A DNA stretch of 64,000 nt from an uncultured Eubacteriales bacterium (GCA_964479875.1 CAYZNM010000016.1:412-64411); one strand, 5' to 3'; counted from the stretch's first letter, positions 1,371 through 43,269 are shown. Numbers and translations: made by a program. The notes: generated by a model not told the origin, from the letters alone.

Positions 1371-4300
1371 TTATTTATTTTTCTTGCGCCTGTTCATCAA
1401 GTTGTATACAACAGGTATGAATACAAGCGTGAGTGCAGTTGCGTATACAAGTCCGCCGATGGCAGTTATCGCCATAGGCTGCATTAGCTCGGTGCGATTA
1501 TTTAAGCCTACGGTCATGGTCGAGAGCGCGAATATCGTGGTGAGTGCGGTCATTAGAATCGGGCGCAGACGGTCGTTGCCTGTTTTAATCAAGGCTTCCT
1601 TGACGTCCATGCCCTCGGCTACTAGCATGTTCGCATAGTCAACGAAAACTATACCATTATTTACCACCACGCCTGTCAACACAATCAAGCCAACGAACGC
1701 AACTACGCTTATCGGCAAGCCCATTATGAACAGCGCGACAAGTCCGCCTGTGAATGCTAGCGGCACCGTGAACATTACGATAAACGGCGACTTCAACGAC
1801 TGGAATTGCGCAACCATGATGAGGTAGATGAAGATTACGCCGACGAGTAACATTAGCAGGAGGTCGCGGAAGGTGTTAATCATCGTTTCGGTCTGTCCGC
1901 CGACTTCGTAGGTGTAGCCGTTGGGCAGTGTGTAGTCGCCCAGCTTTGCAAGCAAGTCCGCGCTCACTATGCCGATGTTGTAGCCTTTGGCTATTTCGGC
2001 GGAAACTGTGAGGTAGCGTTCTTGCCCTTTGCGATTGATGGTGCGGTAGCCTTGCTCTGCCTCGATTGTGGCGATGTCGCCTAGGGCGATTTCGCCGTCT
2101 TTGCCTGAAAGTGTGATGGCTTCAAGGTCGGCGCGCGTTTGAGCTGTTTGTGCTTGTTCGTCTATGAAAATTTTGTACTCGTTGTTGTCAAGGGTCATCT
2201 GCGACACTGCGCTGTCGGAGGCGAAAAGTTTTGCGGCTTCCATATAAACTTGCGCGGTGGTTAGTCCTTGCTTCATGCCTTCTGCGCTGTTTAGGCTTAT
2301 GCGTAGCTCGGGCTGCGCTTTGTTGATTCCGTCGGACACATTGGCTGTGCCTTCTAGCCCTCGCAGAATGTCTGCGATGTCTGTTGCTACTTTTTCCAGC
2401 GTTTCGTAGTCGGGACCTTTTACGTCGATGGAGATTCCGCCGCCGCTTAGGCTGTCCATGCTAACTGTTGCGCCGGATACGCTTAGGCTTGCGACGTCAA
2501 GGCCTGTGGTGCGGCTTTCTATTTCTTCCTTGATTTGTACGGCTGTTTTGCGTGAGTTGGGGTCGAGTACTACTGTTACTGACGCACGCAGGTTGCTGCG
2601 TCTACCTCCGCCTCCGCCCATCATCATGCTTGCGAAACCGCCTCCGCCTGACCCTGCGGACATTGTTGCGCCTACTGTGTCCACGTCCTCAATCTGCCGC
2701 ACGATGTCGACGTACTCGTCCACGACTTTTGTCGCGTCCTCGAAGGAGATGTCCTTGCGCATATTTATCGTCGTGTTAATCTGTCCTGTTTCGGTTTCGG
2801 GGAACATCTGCGTGCCTACAAGCAGCACGCCGCCTAAACTTGCAATGAACAGCGCGAATATTACAGTTACAGTGATAACACTATGCTTTAACGCGAAGTT
2901 TAGCACTCGCGTGTACCCACGCTTCACCGCGTCGAGAATCCTGTGCCGCTTATCCTTTTCGTGGTCGTTTGTAACTGATGAAAGCATTGGCACGAATGAG
3001 ATTGCGACAATCAAGCTTGCAAGCAGCGAGTAGAATATGGTCAATCCCATATCTTGGAATATGTCGCGGGTCAGACCTTGCGTAAACAGTATCGGCGTAA
3101 ATACCGCAACCGTAGTCAAGGTGGATGCCGTTATCGCGCCTGTAACCTGCACCGCGCCTTTAATCGCGGCTTCCTTAATCGGCATACCCTCGTAGCGGTA
3201 GCGATAGATGTTCTCGATTACAACAATTGAGTTGTCCACCAACATTCCGACACCGAGCGCAAGTCCGCCCATCGATATTATGTTGAGCGTGATTCCGCTA
3301 AAGTACATCGCAACGAAGGTGATTACAAGGCTTATCGGAATCGACACGCCGATGATGAAGGTGAACTTTACATCGCGCAGGAACATGAACAGGATTATCA
3401 GCGCAAGTGCCGCGCCGATGATGAGATTAAGCCCCAGCGTGTTTACAACTTCGTTGATATAACGCCCTTGGTCTAGCAGCGGCACGAATGTGAGGTTGGC
3501 GTTTTGCTCCTCTAGCTGCTTTATTTTGGCGAATACATTCTTGGTTACGTCTGTGGTGGAGAATGTGCTTTGCTTTTGGATTGTTAGGATTGCGGCACGT
3601 TCGCCGTTTATGTTTGTGTAGATTTTGTCGCTGTTTGTGCCTACTTCTATGTTGGCGACGTCGCTTAGTTTGATTGGGTCGACGCCTTCCATGCCTAGGT
3701 CGACGATGACCATGTCGGTGATGTCAGAAAGGGTTTTGAAGCGTTCGCCGATTCGCACCATGTATGGCTCGTTATCTTCCTCGACGTAGCCTAGCGGCAT
3801 GTCGAAGTTTTGACCTTTAATTAGCGCGGAAATCATATCCTTGGATATGGTGAATCCACCTGTTGCGGCGGAATTGCCGCTGCCTTGGGCGAGATTTGCG
3901 CCCATGCCGGAGGTTAGGTTGTTGCCTAGGCTTCCTGCTAATAAGCTTGCAAGGGGATTGGCCGCGCCCATTGCTGAGGCTGCGGACTGTGTGTTGCCTA
4001 GCAATCCCGGAGTGGTTTGCAATCGATTCGGCACTGTTGACGTAGAAGCTGTCGAGGTATCAGAAGGGGTTGCATTAGCCATTATCGCGGCGGTAATATC
4101 CTCTTGCACCTTAGCCATCTTGTCCTCATCGAGGGTGACGCGAATGTGATTCTCAATCAAGCCGTTCGCCGATACCGACGCAACGCCGCTTACGCTTTGC
4201 AGTGCAGGAACTACCACTGATTCGATGTACGGCGACGATTCCTCCAGCTTCTTATTCTTTAACGCGACGGACACTTCCATAATCGGGAGCATGTCCGGGT

Positions 4301-38040: not shown

Positions 38041-38451
38041 CTATAAATTTTTTCGGGAGCGTTTATTCAAAATGCAAACCAATACACTTGCCAATGAGAA
38101 GATTGCATAGAGGATTGCTGCGTAAAAAAATACCTGCATAAGATCTTTTTCTAAATCCAATGAAAACCATCCGGGGCTTCTAATGCCTTTCGTTGTATTC
38201 AATAAGTAAAAGATTAGATACAATATCGTCATTGCTATTATGGGTTCAATCAGCAGTTTTATCCTTTTCCATTTATAGGCAATGAAAAAATATAGCACAT
38301 GGATGATGAAAATTTCAAAAGCAAACAGGAGGTTACCCGAACTGCTAACACCTGCGAAATAAACAATAAGATTCAATAAAGCCGCTAAATAGATGGTTAT
38401 CCATTCGGTTAGCGATAATATGATGACTGCAAGGACACTAATCTTCTTCAT
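38041..38451 (-). CDS. Hypothetical small membrane protein, AT-rich
   Basis: 136 aa, about 4 hydrophobic segments, visibly AT-rich. Confidence 0.65.
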   Translation of the reverse strand: MKKISVLAVIILSLTEWITIYLAALLNLIVYFAGVSSSGNLLFAFEIFIIHVLYFFIAYKWKRIKLLIEPIIAMTILYLIFYLLNTTKGIRSPGWFSLDLEKDLMQVFFYAAILYAIFSLASVLVCILNKRSRKNL

Positions 38452-38522: not shown

Positions 38523-38897
38523 CTATAATACTGCGATGACTTCTATTTCTACGAGTGCGCCTTTGGGTAATTGCTTTGCTGCGACGCATGAGCGTGCGGG
38601 GGCGGAGATGAAATGCTTCTCGTAGACTTTGTTGAATTCGGCGAAGTCGGCCATGTCGGCGATGAAGCATGTGGTTTTTACTACGTTGCCAAAGTCTGCG
38701 CCTGCTGCTTGCAGGACTGCGGCGACGTTTTTGCACGCGAGCTCTGTTTGTTCTGTGACTGTGCCTGCTATAAATTCGCCTGTGGTGGGGTCAATTGCGA
38801 TTTGTCCTGAGCAGTATAGGGTGTTGTCTGCTTGCACTGCTTGTGAGTATGGGCCGATGGGCTTGGGGGCGCTTTCTGTGAAAATAATCTTTTTCAT
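38523..38897 (-). CDS. ridA: RidA/YjgF/UK114 enamine/imine deaminase
   Basis: APKPIGPYSQAV, SGQIAIDP, VVKTTCF, PARSCV and LPKGALVEIE. Confidence 0.9.
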   Translation of the reverse strand: MKKIIFTESAPKPIGPYSQAVQADNTLYCSGQIAIDPTTGEFIAGTVTEQTELACKNVAAVLQAAGADFGNVVKTTCFIADMADFAEFNKVYEKHFISAPARSCVAAKQLPKGALVEIEVIAVL

Positions 38898-39010: not shown

Positions 39011-40207
39011 TTAGTTTAACAAAGTGTATCCTGCGTTTTTTAAAGCGTTCTCAATCTGTGTCAAATGCTCGTGATTGCGCGTTTCCATTGAGATGTGCAG
39101 GCAGCAGCCGATTATGTCTGTGTTCTCGCCAGCTGGATTGTGGTTTACCTTGGTTACGTTTGCGCCTAAGTCTGCGATGATAGCAGATACTTCCTTGAGC
39201 TGTCCGGGTTTGTCCAGCATTTGTATGGTGAGCTCGGTTAATCTGCCTGATTTTGTCAGGCCGCGGCTTATGACGCGCGAGAGTATGTTCACGTCGATGT
39301 TGCCGCCGGAAACTATTGCGCATACCTTTTTGCCTGCGATTGGCAGCTTGTTGAACATTACTGCGGCGACTGATACTGCGCCTGCGCCTTCGGCGACAAG
39401 CTTTTGCTGCTCCATCAATGTGAGTATCGCCGTGGCGATTTCGTCGTCGGATACCGTGACGATTTCGTCGACGTATTTGCTGCATAAGTCGTAGGTAAGC
39501 TCGCCGGGGGATTTTACCGCTATGCCGTCTGCGAAAGTGGATATGCTCTTTAAAACGCTGCGCTCTTTTTCGGCGAAGGATTTGGACATGCTTCCTGCAC
39601 CGACTGCTTGCACGCCGTAGACTTTGCAGTCGGGGTTCAGCATTTTTACGACAAACGCTACGCCGGACGCCAATCCGCCGCCGCCTATCGGGACGACTAC
39701 GGCTTCCGCTTGTGCCAATTGGTCCATTATCTCGATACCGATTGTGCCTTGCCCTGCGATTACGTCTGTGTCGTCGAATGGGTGTACGAATACTGCGCCG
39801 GTTTCTTGTTGGTATGCAACAGAGGCGGCGTATGCGTCATCGTATGCGCCGTCGACTAAGCGTATCTCCACGCCGAAGCGTCGCGTCGCTTCGATCTTGG
39901 ATATTGGCGCAATGGCAGGGAGGAATATTGTTGCGGCTATGTCATTCTTTTGCGCGGACAATGCTACGCCCTGCGCGTGATTGCCTGCCGAGCAGGCTAC
40001 TACTCCGCGCGCTCTTTCCTCCTGCGTCAATGTCGACATCTTGAAATATGAGCCGCGCACCTTGAACGAGCCTGTGATTTGTAAATTCTCCGCTTTCAAA
40101 TACAACGTGCAGTTGTCCGTTATTCCGCTCGACAATATCATGTTGGTCTTGCGCACAATAGGCTTTAGCACGTGTGAGGCTTGATAGATTCTGTCCAGTG
40201 TTAGCAT
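39011..40207 (-). CDS. ilvA: Threonine ammonia-lyase with C-terminal ACT domain
   Basis: LKAENLQITGSFKVRG (PLP Lys), SAGNHAQGVA, HPFDD..VIAGQGT, PIGGGGL, SGGNID and DKPGQL ACT motif. Confidence 0.93.
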   Translation of the reverse strand: MLTLDRIYQASHVLKPIVRKTNMILSSGITDNCTLYLKAENLQITGSFKVRGSYFKMSTLTQEERARGVVACSAGNHAQGVALSAQKNDIAATIFLPAIAPISKIEATRRFGVEIRLVDGAYDDAYAASVAYQQETGAVFVHPFDDTDVIAGQGTIGIEIMDQLAQAEAVVVPIGGGGLASGVAFVVKMLNPDCKVYGVQAVGAGSMSKSFAEKERSVLKSISTFADGIAVKSPGELTYDLCSKYVDEIVTVSDDEIATAILTLMEQQKLVAEGAGAVSVAAVMFNKLPIAGKKVCAIVSGGNIDVNILSRVISRGLTKSGRLTELTIQMLDKPGQLKEVSAIIADLGANVTKVNHNPAGENTDIIGCCLHISMETRNHEHLTQIENALKNAGYTLLN

Positions 40208-40214
40208 GATGTGG

Positions 40215-41870
40215 TTAATTCCTTAATATGGTGTTTTCAGTTACGATGTCCTTGACAGAGCCGCCGGGAGGTATCATCGGGAGTACGAATTCATCCATGC
40301 CAATTATGCAGTCGATTACTGCGGGGGTGTCGTTTAGGTTTTCGAGTATGTCGGAGAGTTCGCTCATAGATGTTGCGCGGTAGCCGTTTGCGCCGAATGA
40401 GCGTGCTAATGCAGCAAAGTCTGTTTTGCGCTCGAGCGTTGTTTGTGAGTAGCGTTTGTCGTAGAACATCGTTTGCCATTGACGAACCATGCCTAGGACG
40501 CCGTTGTTTAGCAGTACGATAACTAGCGGAAGCCGCTGCGATACTGCGGTTGCAAGCTCGTTTAGGTTCATGCCGAAGCTGCCGTCGCTAGTGAAAAGTA
40601 CAGCGCGTTTGCGTCCGCTTGCTATGCAGCCGCCTATTGCTGCGCCCATGCCGTAGCCCATTGTGCCTAGGCCGCCGGAGGTCAGCAATGTGCGCGGCTT
40701 CTCGAATTTGTAGTATTGCATCGTCCACATTTGGTGCTGCCCTACGTCGGTCGCTACGATTGCGCTGCTGCCCATTTGCGCGTTTACGAGTTCGATGATG
40801 TTTTTGGGGGTGAAGCCTTCGGCGTAGGCTACGTTTTCCTGCTGCTTGTATTTTTCGATTTCGGCGTGCCATTCTTTGTTTTCGCGCTGCGGCAGTGCTT
40901 GCAGCAGTTGCGTGAGGATTTGCTTTAGGTCGCCGTGCAAGCCGATGGATTCCACGTTTTTGCCGATTTCGGATTCGTCGATTTCGATGTGCAGGATTTT
41001 TCTGCCGCGTGCGTATTCGGTCGTGCAGCCTGTGGCTCTGTCGCTGAAGCGCACGCCCAGTGCGATTACTAGGTCTGCGTTCGCCGACGCCATGCTGGAG
41101 GCGTATTTGCCGTGCATACCGCACATTCCTAGGTTGAGCGAGTACGACGCAGGTATAGCCGAAAGCCCCATCATACTAAGCCCGATTGGTGCGTCGATGT
41201 GCTTGGAAAGTTGCAGCGCAAGTTCCTCCGCGCCTGCGTTGATTAAGCCGCCGCCTGCATATATGAAAGGCTTGCGGCTGGAATTTATAAGCTCCAAAGC
41301 TTCCGCGATGTCGTAAGTTTTTGCAGGAGCTTCGCTTTTTTGCGGTGGCATGTCGATGTACTCGCACATTTCCGCTTGAATATTTTTTGGTATGTCGATT
41401 AATACAGGGCCTTTGCGACCTTCGTTTGCAATCTCGAAGGCTTCTCGTATAGTTTCTTGCAGCTTTGTAACATCGCGTACGATGTAGTTTTTCTTCACAA
41501 TCGACTGCGTAATGCTTACGATGTCGACTTCCTGGAAACTGTCGCGCCCCAACAAATGCAGCGGCACGTTGCCTGTTATCGCAACCATAGGCACAGAGTC
41601 GAGGTATGCGTTCGCGATTCCCGTCACGAGATTAGTCGCGCCGGGGCCGCTTGTCGCGATAACCACGCCTGTTTTGCCGCTTGCGCGCGCGTAGCCGTCG
41701 GCCGCATGTGCCGCGCCTTGCTCATGCGCCGTGATAACGTGGTTAATCTTGTCTGCGTTTTTGTACAGCTCGTCGTATATGTTCAGGACAAACCCTCCGG
41801 GATACCCAAACACAACGTCCACCCCTTGATTTATCAATTCCTTAATAACTATTTGCGCTCCGTTTAACAT
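40215..41870 (-). CDS. ilvB: Acetolactate synthase large subunit
   Basis: VFGYPGG, AHEQGAAHAADGYAR, TSGPGATN, FQEVD, TDVGQHQMW, SGGLGTMGYG, ThDP motif SDGSF...NN and GMVRQWQ. Start MLNGAQ after GGAGG. Confidence 0.95.
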   Translation of the reverse strand: MLNGAQIVIKELINQGVDVVFGYPGGFVLNIYDELYKNADKINHVITAHEQGAAHAADGYARASGKTGVVIATSGPGATNLVTGIANAYLDSVPMVAITGNVPLHLLGRDSFQEVDIVSITQSIVKKNYIVRDVTKLQETIREAFEIANEGRKGPVLIDIPKNIQAEMCEYIDMPPQKSEAPAKTYDIAEALELINSSRKPFIYAGGGLINAGAEELALQLSKHIDAPIGLSMMGLSAIPASYSLNLGMCGMHGKYASSMASANADLVIALGVRFSDRATGCTTEYARGRKILHIEIDESEIGKNVESIGLHGDLKQILTQLLQALPQRENKEWHAEIEKYKQQENVAYAEGFTPKNIIELVNAQMGSSAIVATDVGQHQMWTMQYYKFEKPRTLLTSGGLGTMGYGMGAAIGGCIASGRKRAVLFTSDGSFGMNLNELATAVSQRLPLVIVLLNNGVLGMVRQWQTMFYDKRYSQTTLERKTDFAALARSFGANGYRATSMSELSDILENLNDTPAVIDCIIGMDEFVLPMIPPGGSVKDIVTENTILRN

Positions 41871-41888
41871 TATTATTCCTCCATTCGT

Positions 41889-41926
41889 AAAATGAAACAA
41901 GCCCTGCCGTATGCGGCAAGGCTTGT
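41889..41926 (-). terminator. Attenuator terminator upstream of ilvB
   Basis: Minus strand ACAAGCCTTGCCG-CATA-CGGCAGGGCTTGT then TTCATTTT. Confidence 0.85.
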
Positions 41927-41952
41927 GTTTGTACCCACAACACTATTACACC

Positions 41953-42039
41953 TCACCGACGACAACGCAAAATGACACTATTGCTAATCGCAATAATGCT
42001 AATAATGATAATCGCTATCGCTGTGAGGGTTGGTAACAT
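41953..42039 (-). CDS. Ile-rich leader peptide of the ilvB-ilvA-ridA operon (28 aa)
   Basis: Manual translation MLPTLTAIAIIIISIIAISNSVILRCRR* (9 Ile), AGGAG RBS, lying between the promoter and a terminator. Confidence 0.85.
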   Translation of the reverse strand: MLPTLTAIAIIIISIIAISNSVILRCRR

Positions 42040-42062
42040 TATGTTTACTCCTGTTTTTTATT

Positions 42063-42091
42063 ATTATACCATTGATGTTCGGGTTTGTCAA
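42063..42091 (-). promoter_or_regulatory. Consensus sigmaA promoter of ilv leader
   Basis: TTGACA (42091-42086), 17 bp, TG-N-TATAAT (42068-42063). Confidence 0.85.
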
Positions 42092-42129
42092 TCAGAAATA
42101 AATGTTTGCCGATATATTCTCTTTTGAAT

Positions 42130-43269
42130 TTAGTCAACAAAATCTTTGTATTCTTCAGTTACTACCATTGTGCCATCAACTAATTCCCCTGTAGTTATTC
42201 GTATAATATATTTGTCATCTTCATTCGGAGATGACGCCAATTTATATTCAACAAAACTGACTAGCACGAATTTATTGTCTTTATATTGATATATTTGAGA
42301 AATGTTGCCGAAACCCCCATATTTTGTAATACACTCAAGTTGCTTTTCTTCCAAATTTATTCCTAGCAATGAATAATTGCTGATTTCTATTAGTTCGGCG
42401 TTTTCTGCAAATAACCCTGCATTGTTGTCCCATAGCCAATAGTAGTGGGGGCTGTTCAAGCTTGTGCCGCCAGGGTATTTCCACAGGCTTATATCAATGA
42501 ATCCATCAAAATTCCAGTCGTCGAATGAAAGTCCGTACATTAATTTTTCCGAAGCCGGATTGTTAGTGTCCAATCCATTGATTGTTTGAATAATTGCTCC
42601 TGTATTATCGGTGATAGTGATATTATCAATTTGAGTTCGTTTAAAGTCAAAGTAATATTTTGTTTTGTTATCGAACAACTCACATGCTTTAGTATTACTG
42701 CCTGTTAGCCGAAACGTAAACTCCGGTAGTTGCTCGGATATCTTTTGTGTTGTTACAAAGTCTATGGTCACGTCAATATCCGGCGGAAGCGTGTCGCCAA
42801 AATAGTTATAGTACGATGGATGACGCTCATTTCCAACAATCTCTCCAGTCCAGCTTTCTATGCCGCCGAAATCGTAGACTTTTGTGTATCCGAGCTCGAT
42901 GAGCTTTTTGGAAGCGCGTTCGCTTCTCCTGCCTGTTCTGCAATACACTAGGATTGTTTGGTTTTTGTCTGCGATAACAATTTCGGCTTTTTCTACAATT
43001 TCATAGTCAGGTATTAGAATGGCGTTTGCAATGTGCCCGCTGTCGTATTCCTCTTGGGTGCGTACATCTAAGATGATTACATCGTCGGACATCATGTCTC
43101 GGGCTTCCTCGGGCGAAAGCTTGATGTAGTCTGCCTGATGTGGGGTTGAGGTCGCGGTGGGCGTATTGCTTGCTGCTGTTTCTTGTTGCGGCAATTTGGG
43201 TGCGGCGCAACTTGTGAGCATGGTTGCTGTTAGAAGCATCACTATGCAGATTAATTGAAGTTTCATCAT
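42130..43269 (-). CDS. Rhodanese-domain lipoprotein with uncharacterised C-terminal domain
   Basis: Lipobox LTSC; ILDVRT.EEY.SGHI..AILIP, CRTGRRS loop and VYDFGGI; AT-rich C-terminal half containing DWNFDGFIDISL. Confidence 0.8.
   Translation of the reverse strand: MMKLQLICIVMLLTATMLTSCAAPKLPQQETAASNTPTATSTPHQADYIKLSPEEARDMMSDDVIILDVRTQEEYDSGHIANAILIPDYEIVEKAEIVIADKNQTILVYCRTGRRSERASKKLIELGYTKVYDFGGIESWTGEIVGNERHPSYYNYFGDTLPPDIDVTIDFVTTQKISEQLPEFTFRLTGSNTKACELFDNKTKYYFDFKRTQIDNITITDNTGAIIQTINGLDTNNPASEKLMYGLSFDDWNFDGFIDISLWKYPGGTSLNSPHYYWLWDNNAGLFAENAELIEISNYSLLGINLEEKQLECITKYGGFGNISQIYQYKDNKFVLVSFVEYKLASSPNEDDKYIIRITTGELVDGTMVVTEEYKDFVD

What the first reader, a model, noticed from the sequence alone, without database searches (positions are those of the whole stretch)
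41889..42091. Classical ribosome-mediated attenuator with an Ile-rich leader peptide in a Firmicute
Seen: consensus promoter, AGGAG RBS, a 28-aa ORF with 9 Ile codons (8 within residues 8-18), then a terminator. The sequence over the stop codon (CGG TGA GG = CGGTGAGG, 41958-41951) is complementary to CCTTGCCG in the terminator's 5' arm, giving an antiterminator that is blocked when the ribosome reaches the stop. Established: Firmicute ilv operons are typically controlled by T-box riboswitches or CodY; leader-peptide attenuation is the enterobacterial/actinobacterial paradigm, with few Firmicute examples. Inference: Ile starvation stalls the ribosome and allows read-through. This also implies tight transcription-translation coupling in this lineage, unlike B. 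subtilis.
Basis: partly seen in the sequence, partly recalled or inferred. Interest (0 to 1): 0.68.

Follow-up and report, generated by a model that had tools for sequence, protein, structure and literature searches.

The report
Isoleucine leader-peptide attenuator before ilvB
A tiny isoleucine-rich gene followed by a switchable stop signal sits in front of an isoleucine-synthesis operon of an uncultured spore-forming gut bacterium; it is a textbook way of sensing amino-acid supply, seen here in a widespread sequence family that no RNA database lists.

Summary
On the minus strand lie a perfect promoter, an AGGAG ribosome-binding site, a 28-codon ORF with 9 Ile codons and a strong terminator. 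They sit 27 nt before an ilvB-like gene, then ilvA and ridA, the isoleucine-specific branch.

No T-box or other Rfam family matches. About 40 related leaders stand before ilvB homologues in Clostridia, Treponema and Elusimicrobium genomes. They share an in-ORF hairpin whose 5' arm is made of Ile codons, a conserved UUUUGCGUU block, and a strand around the stop codon that copies the terminator's 3' arm.

That helix is the minimum-energy fold of the RNA left free by a ribosome stalled on the Ile run.

Similarly built leaders carry Phe/Tyr codons before DAHP synthase (a second copy is in this genome) and Leu codons before leuA.

The mechanism is classical, and published Firmicute cases exist (Listeria Rli60, S. 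aureus ilvD). The claim that tight transcription-translation coupling follows is not warranted. All evidence is computational.

Verdict: a real, new member of a known kind, of moderate interest.

The parts
42063..42091 (-). Sigma-A type promoter: TTGACA, 17-nt spacer with TG, TATAAT
   Evidence: 12 of 12 consensus match with a TG extension; sequence read directly.
42048..42052 (-). Shine-Dalgarno AGGAG, 8 nt before the leader ATG
   Evidence: A GGAG-type SD at the same spacing is present in nearly all related leaders.
41953..42039 (-). Leader ORF, 28 codons plus TGA: MLPTLTAIAIIIISIIAISNSVILRCRR
   Evidence: It has 9 Ile codons. Related leaders keep the frame, and the three internal alignment gaps inside the ORF part (L003, L009, L037) are each 3 columns long.
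41986..42018 (-). Regulatory Ile codon run (codons 8, 10-13, 15, 16, 18); one more Ile at codon 23 (41973..41971)
   Evidence: 7 Ile in 10 residues is reached by only 5 of 39,170 small ORFs in the genome.
42013..42030 (-). 5' strand of the 'protector' helix (codons 4-9, ACCCUCACAGCGAUAGCG), which pairs with the antiterminator strand when no ribosome is present
   Evidence: Minimum-energy fold of the untranslated leader. Its conservation across the family was not tested.
41975..41999 (-). Hairpin P1 inside the ORF (GCAUUAUUGC-GAUUA-GCAAUAGUGU); the 5' arm consists of Ser-Ile-Ile codons, and CAUUUUG follows
   Evidence: The family equivalent is AGCAUUAUC...GAUAAUGCU, 90.6% paired, with 5 of 9 pairs changed on both sides. 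A role as an RNA polymerase pause site is inference only.
41962..41972 (-). Conserved block UUUUGCGUUGU (Ile-Leu-Arg-Cys codons)
   Evidence: Nearly invariant at the nucleotide level across the family, while the encoded residues vary (L/W/V/S, C/Y/F).
41951..41964 (-). Antiterminator strand UGUCGU-CGGUGAGG; it contains the TGA stop (41955..41953)
   Evidence: Pairs with 41921..41914 and, after a 3-nt bulge, with ACGGCA at 41910..41905. This is the minimum-energy fold of the RNA 3' of a ribosome stalled at codons 10-18. It is the window's counterpart of the family strand GCUG-A(A/U)UA-AGGG.
41925..41943 (-). Small hairpin GUGUU-GUGGGUAC-AAACAC enclosed by the antiterminator
41889..41926 (-). 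Intrinsic terminator (13 bp, 8 G-C, loop CAUA) plus the U-tract UUCAUUUU
   Evidence: The hairpin is -22.9 kcal/mol. The family terminator is 97.1% paired, with 9 of 12 pairs changed on both sides and 0 of 500 shuffles as good.
40215..41882 (-). GGAGG SD and ilvB-like acetolactate/acetohydroxybutyrate synthase large subunit (ATG at 41870, 551 aa)
   Evidence: TIGR00118, 655 bits against a cut-off of 538.
39011..40207 (-). ilvA, threonine ammonia-lyase (398 aa)
   Evidence: TIGR01127, 452 bits against a cut-off of 379.
38523..38897 (-). ridA, Rid-family enamine/imine deaminase (124 aa)
   Evidence: TIGR00004, 164 bits against a cut-off of 106.

Best explanation
This is a classical ribosome-mediated (leader-peptide) transcription attenuator that senses charged tRNA-Ile. 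It controls an operon for the isoleucine-specific branch: ilvB-like synthase, ilvA and ridA.

Transcription starts at the consensus promoter, and a ribosome begins translating the 28-codon leader.

When Ile-tRNA is plentiful:
- The ribosome runs to the TGA stop, which lies inside the antiterminator strand UGUCGUCGGUGAGG, and covers that strand.
- The terminator (41926..41897) forms and transcription ends before ilvB.

When Ile-tRNA is scarce:
- The ribosome stalls in the Ile run (codons 8-18).
- The stalled ribosome holds open hairpin P1 and the upstream 'protector' strand, and leaves the antiterminator strand free.
- That strand pairs with the terminator's 5' arm as soon as the arm is made (CGGUGAGG:CCUUGCCG, then UGUCGU:ACGGCA), so RNA polymerase reads through into ilvB-ilvA-ridA.

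Without any translation, the protector (codons 4-9) sequesters the antiterminator strand and the terminator forms.

Shown here: the sequence elements, their conservation, covariation of P1 and the terminator, and the concerted change of three strands. Inferred: translation of the leader, the response to Ile, and any pausing role of P1.
For: 1. All elements are present and statistically unusual.

2. The downstream genes form the Ile-specific branch, matching an almost Ile-only leader. The genome has a separate AHAS paralogue, ilvN and leuA elsewhere.

3. Of 80 ilvB homologues fetched from public genomes, most carry an Ile-rich small ORF plus terminator upstream. 37 class-A leaders share the motif ..SIIVI..xAxLRCA(D/E).

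4. The conservation is at the RNA level.
- AGCAUUAUC/GAUAAUGCU form hairpin P1.
- The strand around the stop (GCUG-AAUA-AGGG) copies the terminator 3' arm (GCUG-(C/U)AAGGGG).
- The encoded residues vary while GCGU and GCUG stay fixed.

5. P1 plus the terminator are 94.3% paired, with 14 of 21 pairs changed on both sides and 0 of 500 shuffles as good.

6. Leader strands bind their own terminator 5' arm better than the arms of other members: -16.9 against -15.5 kcal/mol, with none of 5,000 permutations as low. Most have z of -2 to -6 against shuffles.

7. In the window, the terminator 5' arm, the 3' arm and the leader strand all differ from the consensus in a mutually compensating way. The consensus is CAGC / GCUG / GCUG; the window has GCCG / CGGC / (U)CGG. 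The second copy in the same genome shows CGGC / GCCG / GCCG.

8. With a ribosome placed on Ile codons 10-18, the minimum-energy fold of the downstream RNA, up to the terminator loop, is exactly the antiterminator. It extends to 15 bp (-23.7 kcal/mol) once 6 nt of the 3' arm exist.

9. Similarly built leaders carry codons matching the downstream pathway:
- Phe/Tyr before DAHP synthase.
- Leu before leuA.
- Ile before ilvB, ilvN and an MbcS-like acyl-CoA synthetase.

10. No T-box or other Rfam family matches.
Against: - There are no expression, Term-seq or ribosome data.
- At equilibrium the terminator is always in the minimum-energy fold, even with ribosome masks. The switch must therefore be kinetic, as in classical cases.
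- The window's antiterminator duplex is no stronger than shuffles of its G/U-rich strand (z = -0.3).
- A ribosome stalled at codons 15-18 no longer covers codons 4-9, which could re-form the protector behind it.
- The upper part of the family antiterminator (GCGUU..UGCUG with CAGCAAACGC) is almost invariant, so it gives no covariation signal.
- The window was one of the 26 seed sequences of model R1, so its own 82.5-bit score is circular.
Confidence: 0.85

Rival explanations
1. The small ORF encodes a genuine hydrophobic membrane peptide (for example a type I toxin-like or regulatory small protein) with its own terminator. Its position before ilvB would be incidental.
For: The peptide looks like a single transmembrane helix with a basic C-terminus (RCRR). 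Some leader peptides do act in trans, for example peTrpL (PMC7298713).
Against: - Conservation is at the nucleotide level (hairpin arms and a copy of the terminator arm), while residues vary.
- Similarly built leaders are Phe/Tyr-rich or Leu-rich, matching the operon that follows them.
- Only 27 nt separate the terminator hairpin from the ilvB start codon (19 nt from the end of the U-tract), and no promoter-like site was found on that strand between them.
Confidence: 0.03
2. The terminator/antiterminator switch is set by something other than the leader ribosome, such as a metabolite, a protein like CodY or an RNA-binding protein, or uncharged tRNA. The ORF would be incidental.
For: Firmicute ilv operons commonly use T-boxes and CodY (PMC5794164). 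The leader RNA is highly structured (z = -6.7).
Against: - No T-box or riboswitch match even at E <= 10.
- SD, ATG, reading frame and Ile codons are conserved in about 40 homologues.
- The stop codon sits inside the antiterminator strand.
- Codon identity tracks the regulated pathway in paralogous leaders.

Additional promoter-level control by CodY is not excluded.
Confidence: 0.04
3. It is a ribosome-dependent attenuator, but it reports general slowing of translation (antibiotics, global starvation) rather than Ile specifically. Alternatively, it depends on a nascent-peptide arrest motif in the conserved ..LRC.. tail.
For: Firmicute ribosome-mediated attenuators that sense translation inhibitors are well known (PMC4191407, PMC6851288). 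The L-R-C-A-D/E tail appears conserved at the peptide level in many members.
Against: - 9 of 28 codons are Ile, and the operon makes Ile.
- The tail residues vary (W, V, S for L; Y, F for C) while the nucleotides stay fixed. Leu is always UUG and Ala always GCU, as expected for an RNA constraint.
- The window itself ends in RCRR, not RCAD.
Confidence: 0.05

Closest known systems
E. coli / Salmonella ilvGMEDA (ilvL) and ilvBN (ivbL) leader-peptide attenuators
   Same: A short translated leader rich in branched-chain codons, mutually exclusive protector, antiterminator and terminator helices, and control of the first enzymes of the pathway (established knowledge; PMC1183508 for the general mechanism).
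   Different: There is no sequence relationship. The window's leader is almost purely Ile (ilvL mixes Ile, Val and Leu; ivbL is Val/Leu). The host is a Gram-positive spore former. The regulated operon is ilvB-ilvA-ridA.
Listeria monocytogenes Rli60 attenuator upstream of ilvD (PMC5864092)
   Same: A Firmicute with a ribosome-mediated transcription attenuator before BCAA biosynthesis genes. Rli60 has a BCAA-rich leader and terminator/antiterminator hairpins validated by mutation.
   Different: Rli60 encodes a 13-aa mixed-BCAA peptide, precedes the whole ilv-leu operon and is layered under CodY. No sequence similarity was seen. The window's element has no experimental support.
Staphylococcus aureus ilvD attenuator peptide (PMC5794164)
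   Same: A Firmicute leader peptide plus terminator before ilv-leu, proposed in place of the B. subtilis T-box.
   Different: It is Leu-rich and responds to Leu; Ile acts through CodY there. It belongs to a different sequence family.
Corynebacterium ilvBNC leader (ilvB-II motif), and the ilvB-OMG and Leptospira ilvB motifs (PMC10272879)
   Same: Conserved uORFs rich in branched-chain codons upstream of ilvB, interpreted as attenuators.
   Different: The two ilvB-OMG rows I saw in that paper's File S2 are G+C-rich and show none of this family's blocks. No Rfam family, at E <= 10, matches the window. The Clostridial family described here has its own conserved blocks.
B. subtilis-type T-box leader (RF00230)
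   Same: It is the usual Firmicute solution for sensing tRNA charging before ilv-leu, and it is also a terminator/antiterminator switch.
   Different: It senses uncharged tRNA directly and has no ORF. No T-box lies here. The genome has only 2 T-boxes, and 40 relatives in the order have 0-8.

Membership tests
Ribosome-mediated (leader-peptide) transcription attenuator | Short ORF with its own SD and start codon inside the 5' leader of a biosynthetic operon | tested here: met
   AGGAG, 8 nt, ATG, 28 codons. SD and ATG are conserved in relatives.
Ribosome-mediated (leader-peptide) transcription attenuator | Cluster of regulatory codons for the amino acid made by the operon | tested here: met
   9 Ile among 28 codons, before ilvB-ilvA-ridA. 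This is rare in the genome. Ile-rich leaders stand before most of the 80 ilvB homologues.
Ribosome-mediated (leader-peptide) transcription attenuator | Intrinsic terminator between the leader ORF and the first structural gene | tested here: met
   13-bp stem plus U-tract, 27 nt before the ilvB ATG. Covariation in the family: 9 of 12 pairs.
Ribosome-mediated (leader-peptide) transcription attenuator | Antiterminator helix mutually exclusive with the terminator, freed by a ribosome stalled at the regulatory codons and blocked by a ribosome at the stop codon | tested here: met
   It is the minimum-energy fold of the RNA 3' of a stalled ribosome. The stop codon lies inside the strand. Cognate pairing beats non-cognate pairing (none of 5,000 permutations as low), and three strands changed in concert. 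The window's own duplex is not better than shuffles.
Ribosome-mediated (leader-peptide) transcription attenuator | Leader is translated, and read-through rises when the cognate charged tRNA is scarce | not testable with these tools
T-box leader (RF00230) | Match to the T-box covariance model (specifier loop, T-box sequence) | tested here: not met
   No T-box hit in 41500..42500 at E <= 10 or in the whole window at gathering score. The genome's two T-boxes lie on other contigs.
ilvB-OMG RNA motif (Weinberg 2017; PMC10272879) | Sequence and structure similarity to the published alignment or Rfam model | tested here: inconclusive
   No Rfam hit at E <= 10 and none in 18 related loci at gathering score. 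The two rows I saw in the paper's File S2 are G+C-rich and unlike this leader. I could not confirm that the motif is in the Rfam copy used.
Clostridial 'class-A' Ile leader family defined here (model R1) | In-ORF hairpin AGCAUUAUC...GAUAAUGCU with Ile codons in the 5' arm, followed by UUUUGCGUU | tested here: met
   The window has GCAUUAUUGC-GAUUA-GCAAUAGUGU followed by CAUUUUGCGUUGU, in the same register. An independent DNA search found the same block in a same-genus genome and a same-order genome.
Clostridial 'class-A' Ile leader family defined here (model R1) | Terminator apex CAGC-AAAC-GCUG and leader strand GCUG-AAUA-AGGG | tested here: not met
   The window has GCCG-CAUA-CGGC and CGUCGGUGAGG. 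The sequence differs but the pairing is kept. The R1 score of 82.5 bits is circular, because the window was in the seed.

The most novel reading that the evidence does not exclude
The window's element would be one instance of a modular, horizontally mobile attenuator scaffold in Clostridia.

The scaffold has three fixed parts: a hairpin whose 5' arm holds the sensing codons, the block GCUUAUUUGCGU, and a copy of the terminator arm around the stop codon. It would be re-programmed for different amino acids by swapping the codons in the hairpin's 5' arm, with compensating changes in the 3' arm:
- AGC-AUU-AUC/GAUAAUGCU for Ile.
- AGC-UUU-AC/GUAAAGCU for Phe/Tyr.
- AACCUUGC/GCAAGGUU for Leu.

On this reading it does the work that T-boxes do in bacilli, in an order that has few T-boxes. 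It has also travelled with ilvB into Treponema and Elusimicrobium.
Probability: 0.45. Interest if true: 0.55.

Novelty: new member of a known kind. Interest (0 to 1): 0.4.

Why it matters
The finding gives a testable and apparently uncatalogued RNA/leader family. At E <= 1e-4 it was hit in 30 of 400 sampled Clostridia genomes, although some of those hits are plain terminators. At E <= 1e-3 it was hit in 37 of 151 genomes of the window's order.

It would improve annotation. These Ile-rich mini-ORFs could be mistaken for transmembrane small proteins.

It adds comparative evidence that leader-peptide attenuation of amino-acid operons is used in Gram-positive anaerobes, alongside or instead of T-boxes.

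Leaders of the same build carrying Ile, Leu or Phe/Tyr codons would be a natural system for studying how attenuator specificity evolves.

It does not by itself bear on the question of genome-wide transcription-translation coupling.

Tried and rejected
- **T-box or any Rfam family:** nothing at E <= 10 in 41500..42500. The best hits were sau-41 (22 bits against a gathering score of 80) and isrJ, which matched the terminator only. Nothing but tRNAs turned up in the window or in 18 related loci.
- **ilvB-OMG:** the rows I saw in the published alignment are G+C-rich and dissimilar.
- **Exact-protein look-up of the window's IlvB:** not on record, so no contig name was obtained.
- **Equilibrium folding with ribosome masks:** the terminator is always in the minimum-energy fold, so this cannot discriminate. 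I replaced it with co-transcriptional folds.
- **Covariation of the upper antiterminator helix:** the columns are too conserved to show any.
- **Link between leader composition and an adjacent ilvA:** most class-A loci lack ilvA next to ilvB, and no clear pattern emerged.
- **Leaders before the genome's other AHAS paralogue, ilvN, leuA and the MbcS-like gene:** none found.
- **A conserved arrest peptide in the LRCAD tail:** rejected because the residues vary while the nucleotides are fixed.

Full report
**Observation**

- Promoter: TTGACA (42091..42086), a 17-nt spacer ending in TG, and TATAAT (42068..42063), a 12/12 match.
- AGGAG (42052..42048), 8 nt before the ATG at 42039.
- A 28-codon ORF, MLPTLTAIAIIIISIIAISNSVILRCRR, with the TGA stop at 41955..41953. 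It has 9 Ile, 8 of them within residues 8-18.
- A 13-bp, 8 G-C terminator (41926..41897) followed by UUCAUUUU.
- CGGTGAGG (41958..41951) spans the stop codon and can pair with CCTTGCCG (41921..41914).

The arrangement is not a chance one. Only 5 of 39,170 small ORFs in this 2.72-Mb, 47.9% G+C genome have 7 or more Ile in 10 residues. A genome-wide screen for single-amino-acid-rich mini-ORFs with an SD and a following terminator returned 16 candidates, of which this one scored highest (7 Ile in 10 residues). Only one other looked like a leader peptide: a Phe/Tyr-rich ORF before DAHP synthase. The leader RNA folds with z = -6.7.

**Context**

The genes that follow are:
- an ilvB-type synthase large subunit (TIGR00118, 655 bits);
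- ilvA (TIGR01127, 452 bits);
- ridA (TIGR00004, 164 bits);
- a 136-aa ORF with no family match.

Threonine deaminase, RidA and the synthase together make acetohydroxybutyrate, the isoleucine-specific branch. This fits a leader that is almost purely Ile. A second AHAS paralogue (39% identity), ilvN and leuA lie elsewhere in the genome.

The host is a spore-forming Firmicute. Spo0A scores 296 bits against a cut-off of 200, a threshold passed only by B. subtilis among the 14 control genomes. There is no T-box here. The genome has only two T-boxes, and 40 relatives in its order have 0-8 each.

**Relatives**

I fetched 80 ilvB homologues of 56-68% identity from Clostridia, Treponema, Elusimicrobium and Lentisphaerae genomes. 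Most carry an Ile-rich mini-ORF plus terminator upstream.

37 'class-A' leaders, from Clostridia, Treponema and Elusimicrobium, share ..SIIVI..xAxLRCA(D/E). Reading the nucleotides shows that this conservation is at the RNA level:
- AGCAUUAUC (Ser-Ile-Ile) and GAUAAUGCU form a hairpin, P1, inside the ORF.
- UUUUGCGUU follows it.
- The strand around the stop codon, GCUG-A(A/U)UA-AGGG, copies the terminator's 3' arm, GCUG-(C/U)AAGGGG. It can therefore pair with the 5' arm, CCCUU-x-CAGC.
- Leu is always UUG and Ala always GCU, while the residues themselves vary (W, V or S for L; Y or F for C).
- The three internal alignment gaps inside the ORF part (L003, L009, L037) are each 3 columns long.

**Tests**

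- On a 26-sequence alignment, P1 plus the terminator are 94.3% paired. 14 of 21 pairs changed on both sides, and 0 of 500 shuffles matched this.
- The upper extension of the antiterminator into the terminator loop (GCGUU..UGCUG with CAGCAAACGC) is 84% paired but nearly invariant, so it is uninformative.
- Leader strands bind their own terminator arm better than those of other members: -16.9 against -15.5 kcal/mol, with none of 5,000 permutations as low. Most have z of -2 to -6 against shuffles.
- The window's own G/U-rich strand does not stand out (z = -0.3).

What supports the window's helix is concerted change.
- Where the family has CAGC / GCUG in the terminator and GCUG in the leader, the window has GCCG / CGGC and (U)CGG.
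- The second copy in the same genome has CGGC / GCCG and GCCG.

Folding gives the same answer.
- At equilibrium the terminator always wins.
- I also folded the RNA 3' of a ribosome placed on Ile codons 10-18, only as far as the terminator loop. It adopts UCGGUGAGG:CCUUGCCGC as its minimum-energy structure.
- That helix extends by UGUCGU:ACGGCA to about -23.7 kcal/mol once six bases of the 3' arm exist. The terminator hairpin is -22.9.
- Without a ribosome, codons 4-9 pair with the antiterminator strand, acting as a protector.
- A ribosome at the TGA covers the strand.

**Wider family**

A covariance model built from the Ile leaders found a second copy in the window's own genome (E = 1.8e-12). 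That copy has a consensus promoter and the leader MINKLFSAFAYYYFFYFTFFGGKVYLRFAESKLAT. It has the same 3' layout, and it precedes DAHP synthase and prephenate dehydrogenase.

Hits occur in 37 of 151 genomes of the order (E <= 1e-3) and in 30 of 400 sampled Clostridia (E <= 1e-4). Some of these are plain terminators. The leaders sort by codon and downstream gene:
- Ile before ilvB, ilvN and, in a same-genus genome, an HTH-cupin/AMP-binding protein whose best match is the methylbutyryl-CoA synthetase MbcS.
- Leu (MKSQFSAQLNLLNLALLLQG) before leuA (721 bits).
- Phe/Tyr before DAHP synthase.

In these leaders P1 keeps its place, but both arms change together: AGCUUUAC/GUAAAGCU and AACCUUGC/GCAAGGUU. 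Tandem double leaders occur in several Clostridia and in all the Lentisphaerae loci.

**Comparison with what is known**

The mechanism is that of the enterobacterial ilvL and ivbL leaders. Firmicute precedents are Listeria Rli60 (PMC5864092), the S. aureus ilvD attenuator peptide (PMC5794164) and His leaders in bacilli (PMC2965389). uORF attenuators before ilvB are also described for Corynebacterium, and are suggested for the ilvB-OMG and Leptospira motifs (PMC10272879).

I found no description of this Clostridial family in four literature searches, and no Rfam model that matches it. Earlier notes of this scan list many Ile-leader attenuators in other phyla, so the kind is common.

B. subtilis has a ribosome-mediated transcription attenuator, bmrCD (PMC4191407), and it uses RNA polymerase pausing together with leader-peptide ribosome stalling (PMC6851288). 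P1 followed by CAUUUUG could be such a pause site, but that is my inference only.

**Verdict**

This is a real, classical Ile-sensing leader-peptide attenuator (confidence 0.85, computational evidence only). It is a new member of a known kind. Its added interest is that leaders of the same build carry Ile, Leu or Phe/Tyr codons in a T-box-poor order of Clostridia.

Noticed in passing
own genome, contig C1:70811-70975 (-) = L085:1501-1665 (-); not in the window: A second attenuator of the same build lies in the same genome. It has a consensus promoter, the Phe/Tyr-rich leader MINKLFSAFAYYYFFYFTFFGGKVYLRFAESKLAT and the terminator AAGGGTCTGCGGC-AAAC-GCCGCAGACCCTTTTTT. DAHP synthase and prephenate dehydrogenase follow it.
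   Followed up: partly
L003 (same-genus genome G001), minus strand, about 1575..1393: The Ile leader MVIAVISIISIISIIIRDNVILRCAE plus a terminator precedes an HTH_3-Cupin_2-AMP-binding fusion protein, not ilvB. The best NCBIfam match of that protein is the methylbutyryl-CoA synthetase MbcS, at 128 bits, far below the cut-off of 850; the protein is partial. This may point to Ile synthesis from 2-methylbutyrate.
   Followed up: partly
L002:1468-1800 (+); L005, L006, L007, L036, L038; Lentisphaerae loci L052-L080: Two complete leader-plus-terminator units stand in tandem before ilvB in several Clostridia and in essentially all Lentisphaerae loci. The Lentisphaerae leaders end in ..GCGTAGCCC and ..TPPGMV.
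   Followed up: partly
L097:1486-1634 (+) (genome G007, same order): The Leu-rich leader MKSQFSAQLNLLNLALLLQG, of the same general build, precedes 2-isopropylmalate synthase (NF002086, 721 bits).
   Followed up: partly
whole genome and 40 relatives: The window's genome has only 2 T-box leaders, and 40 relatives in its order have 0-8 each. From my own knowledge this is far fewer than in B. subtilis.
   Followed up: partly
L008 (Elusimicrobium posterum chromosome), L009 (Treponema MAG): Class-A Ile leaders with the same conserved blocks stand before ilvB in non-Firmicute termite-gut genomes. This suggests the gene and its attenuator moved together by horizontal transfer.
   Followed up: no
window 38041..38451 (-): A 136-aa ORF lies 72 nt downstream of ridA on the same strand. 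It has no NCBIfam or Pfam match, and whether it belongs to the operon is unknown.
   Followed up: no
window 42130..43269 (-): The upstream gene, encoding a protein with a rhodanese domain and an XAC2610-related domain, ends 38 nt before the -35 box with no terminator-like site between. Read-through from it would also meet the attenuator.
   Followed up: no
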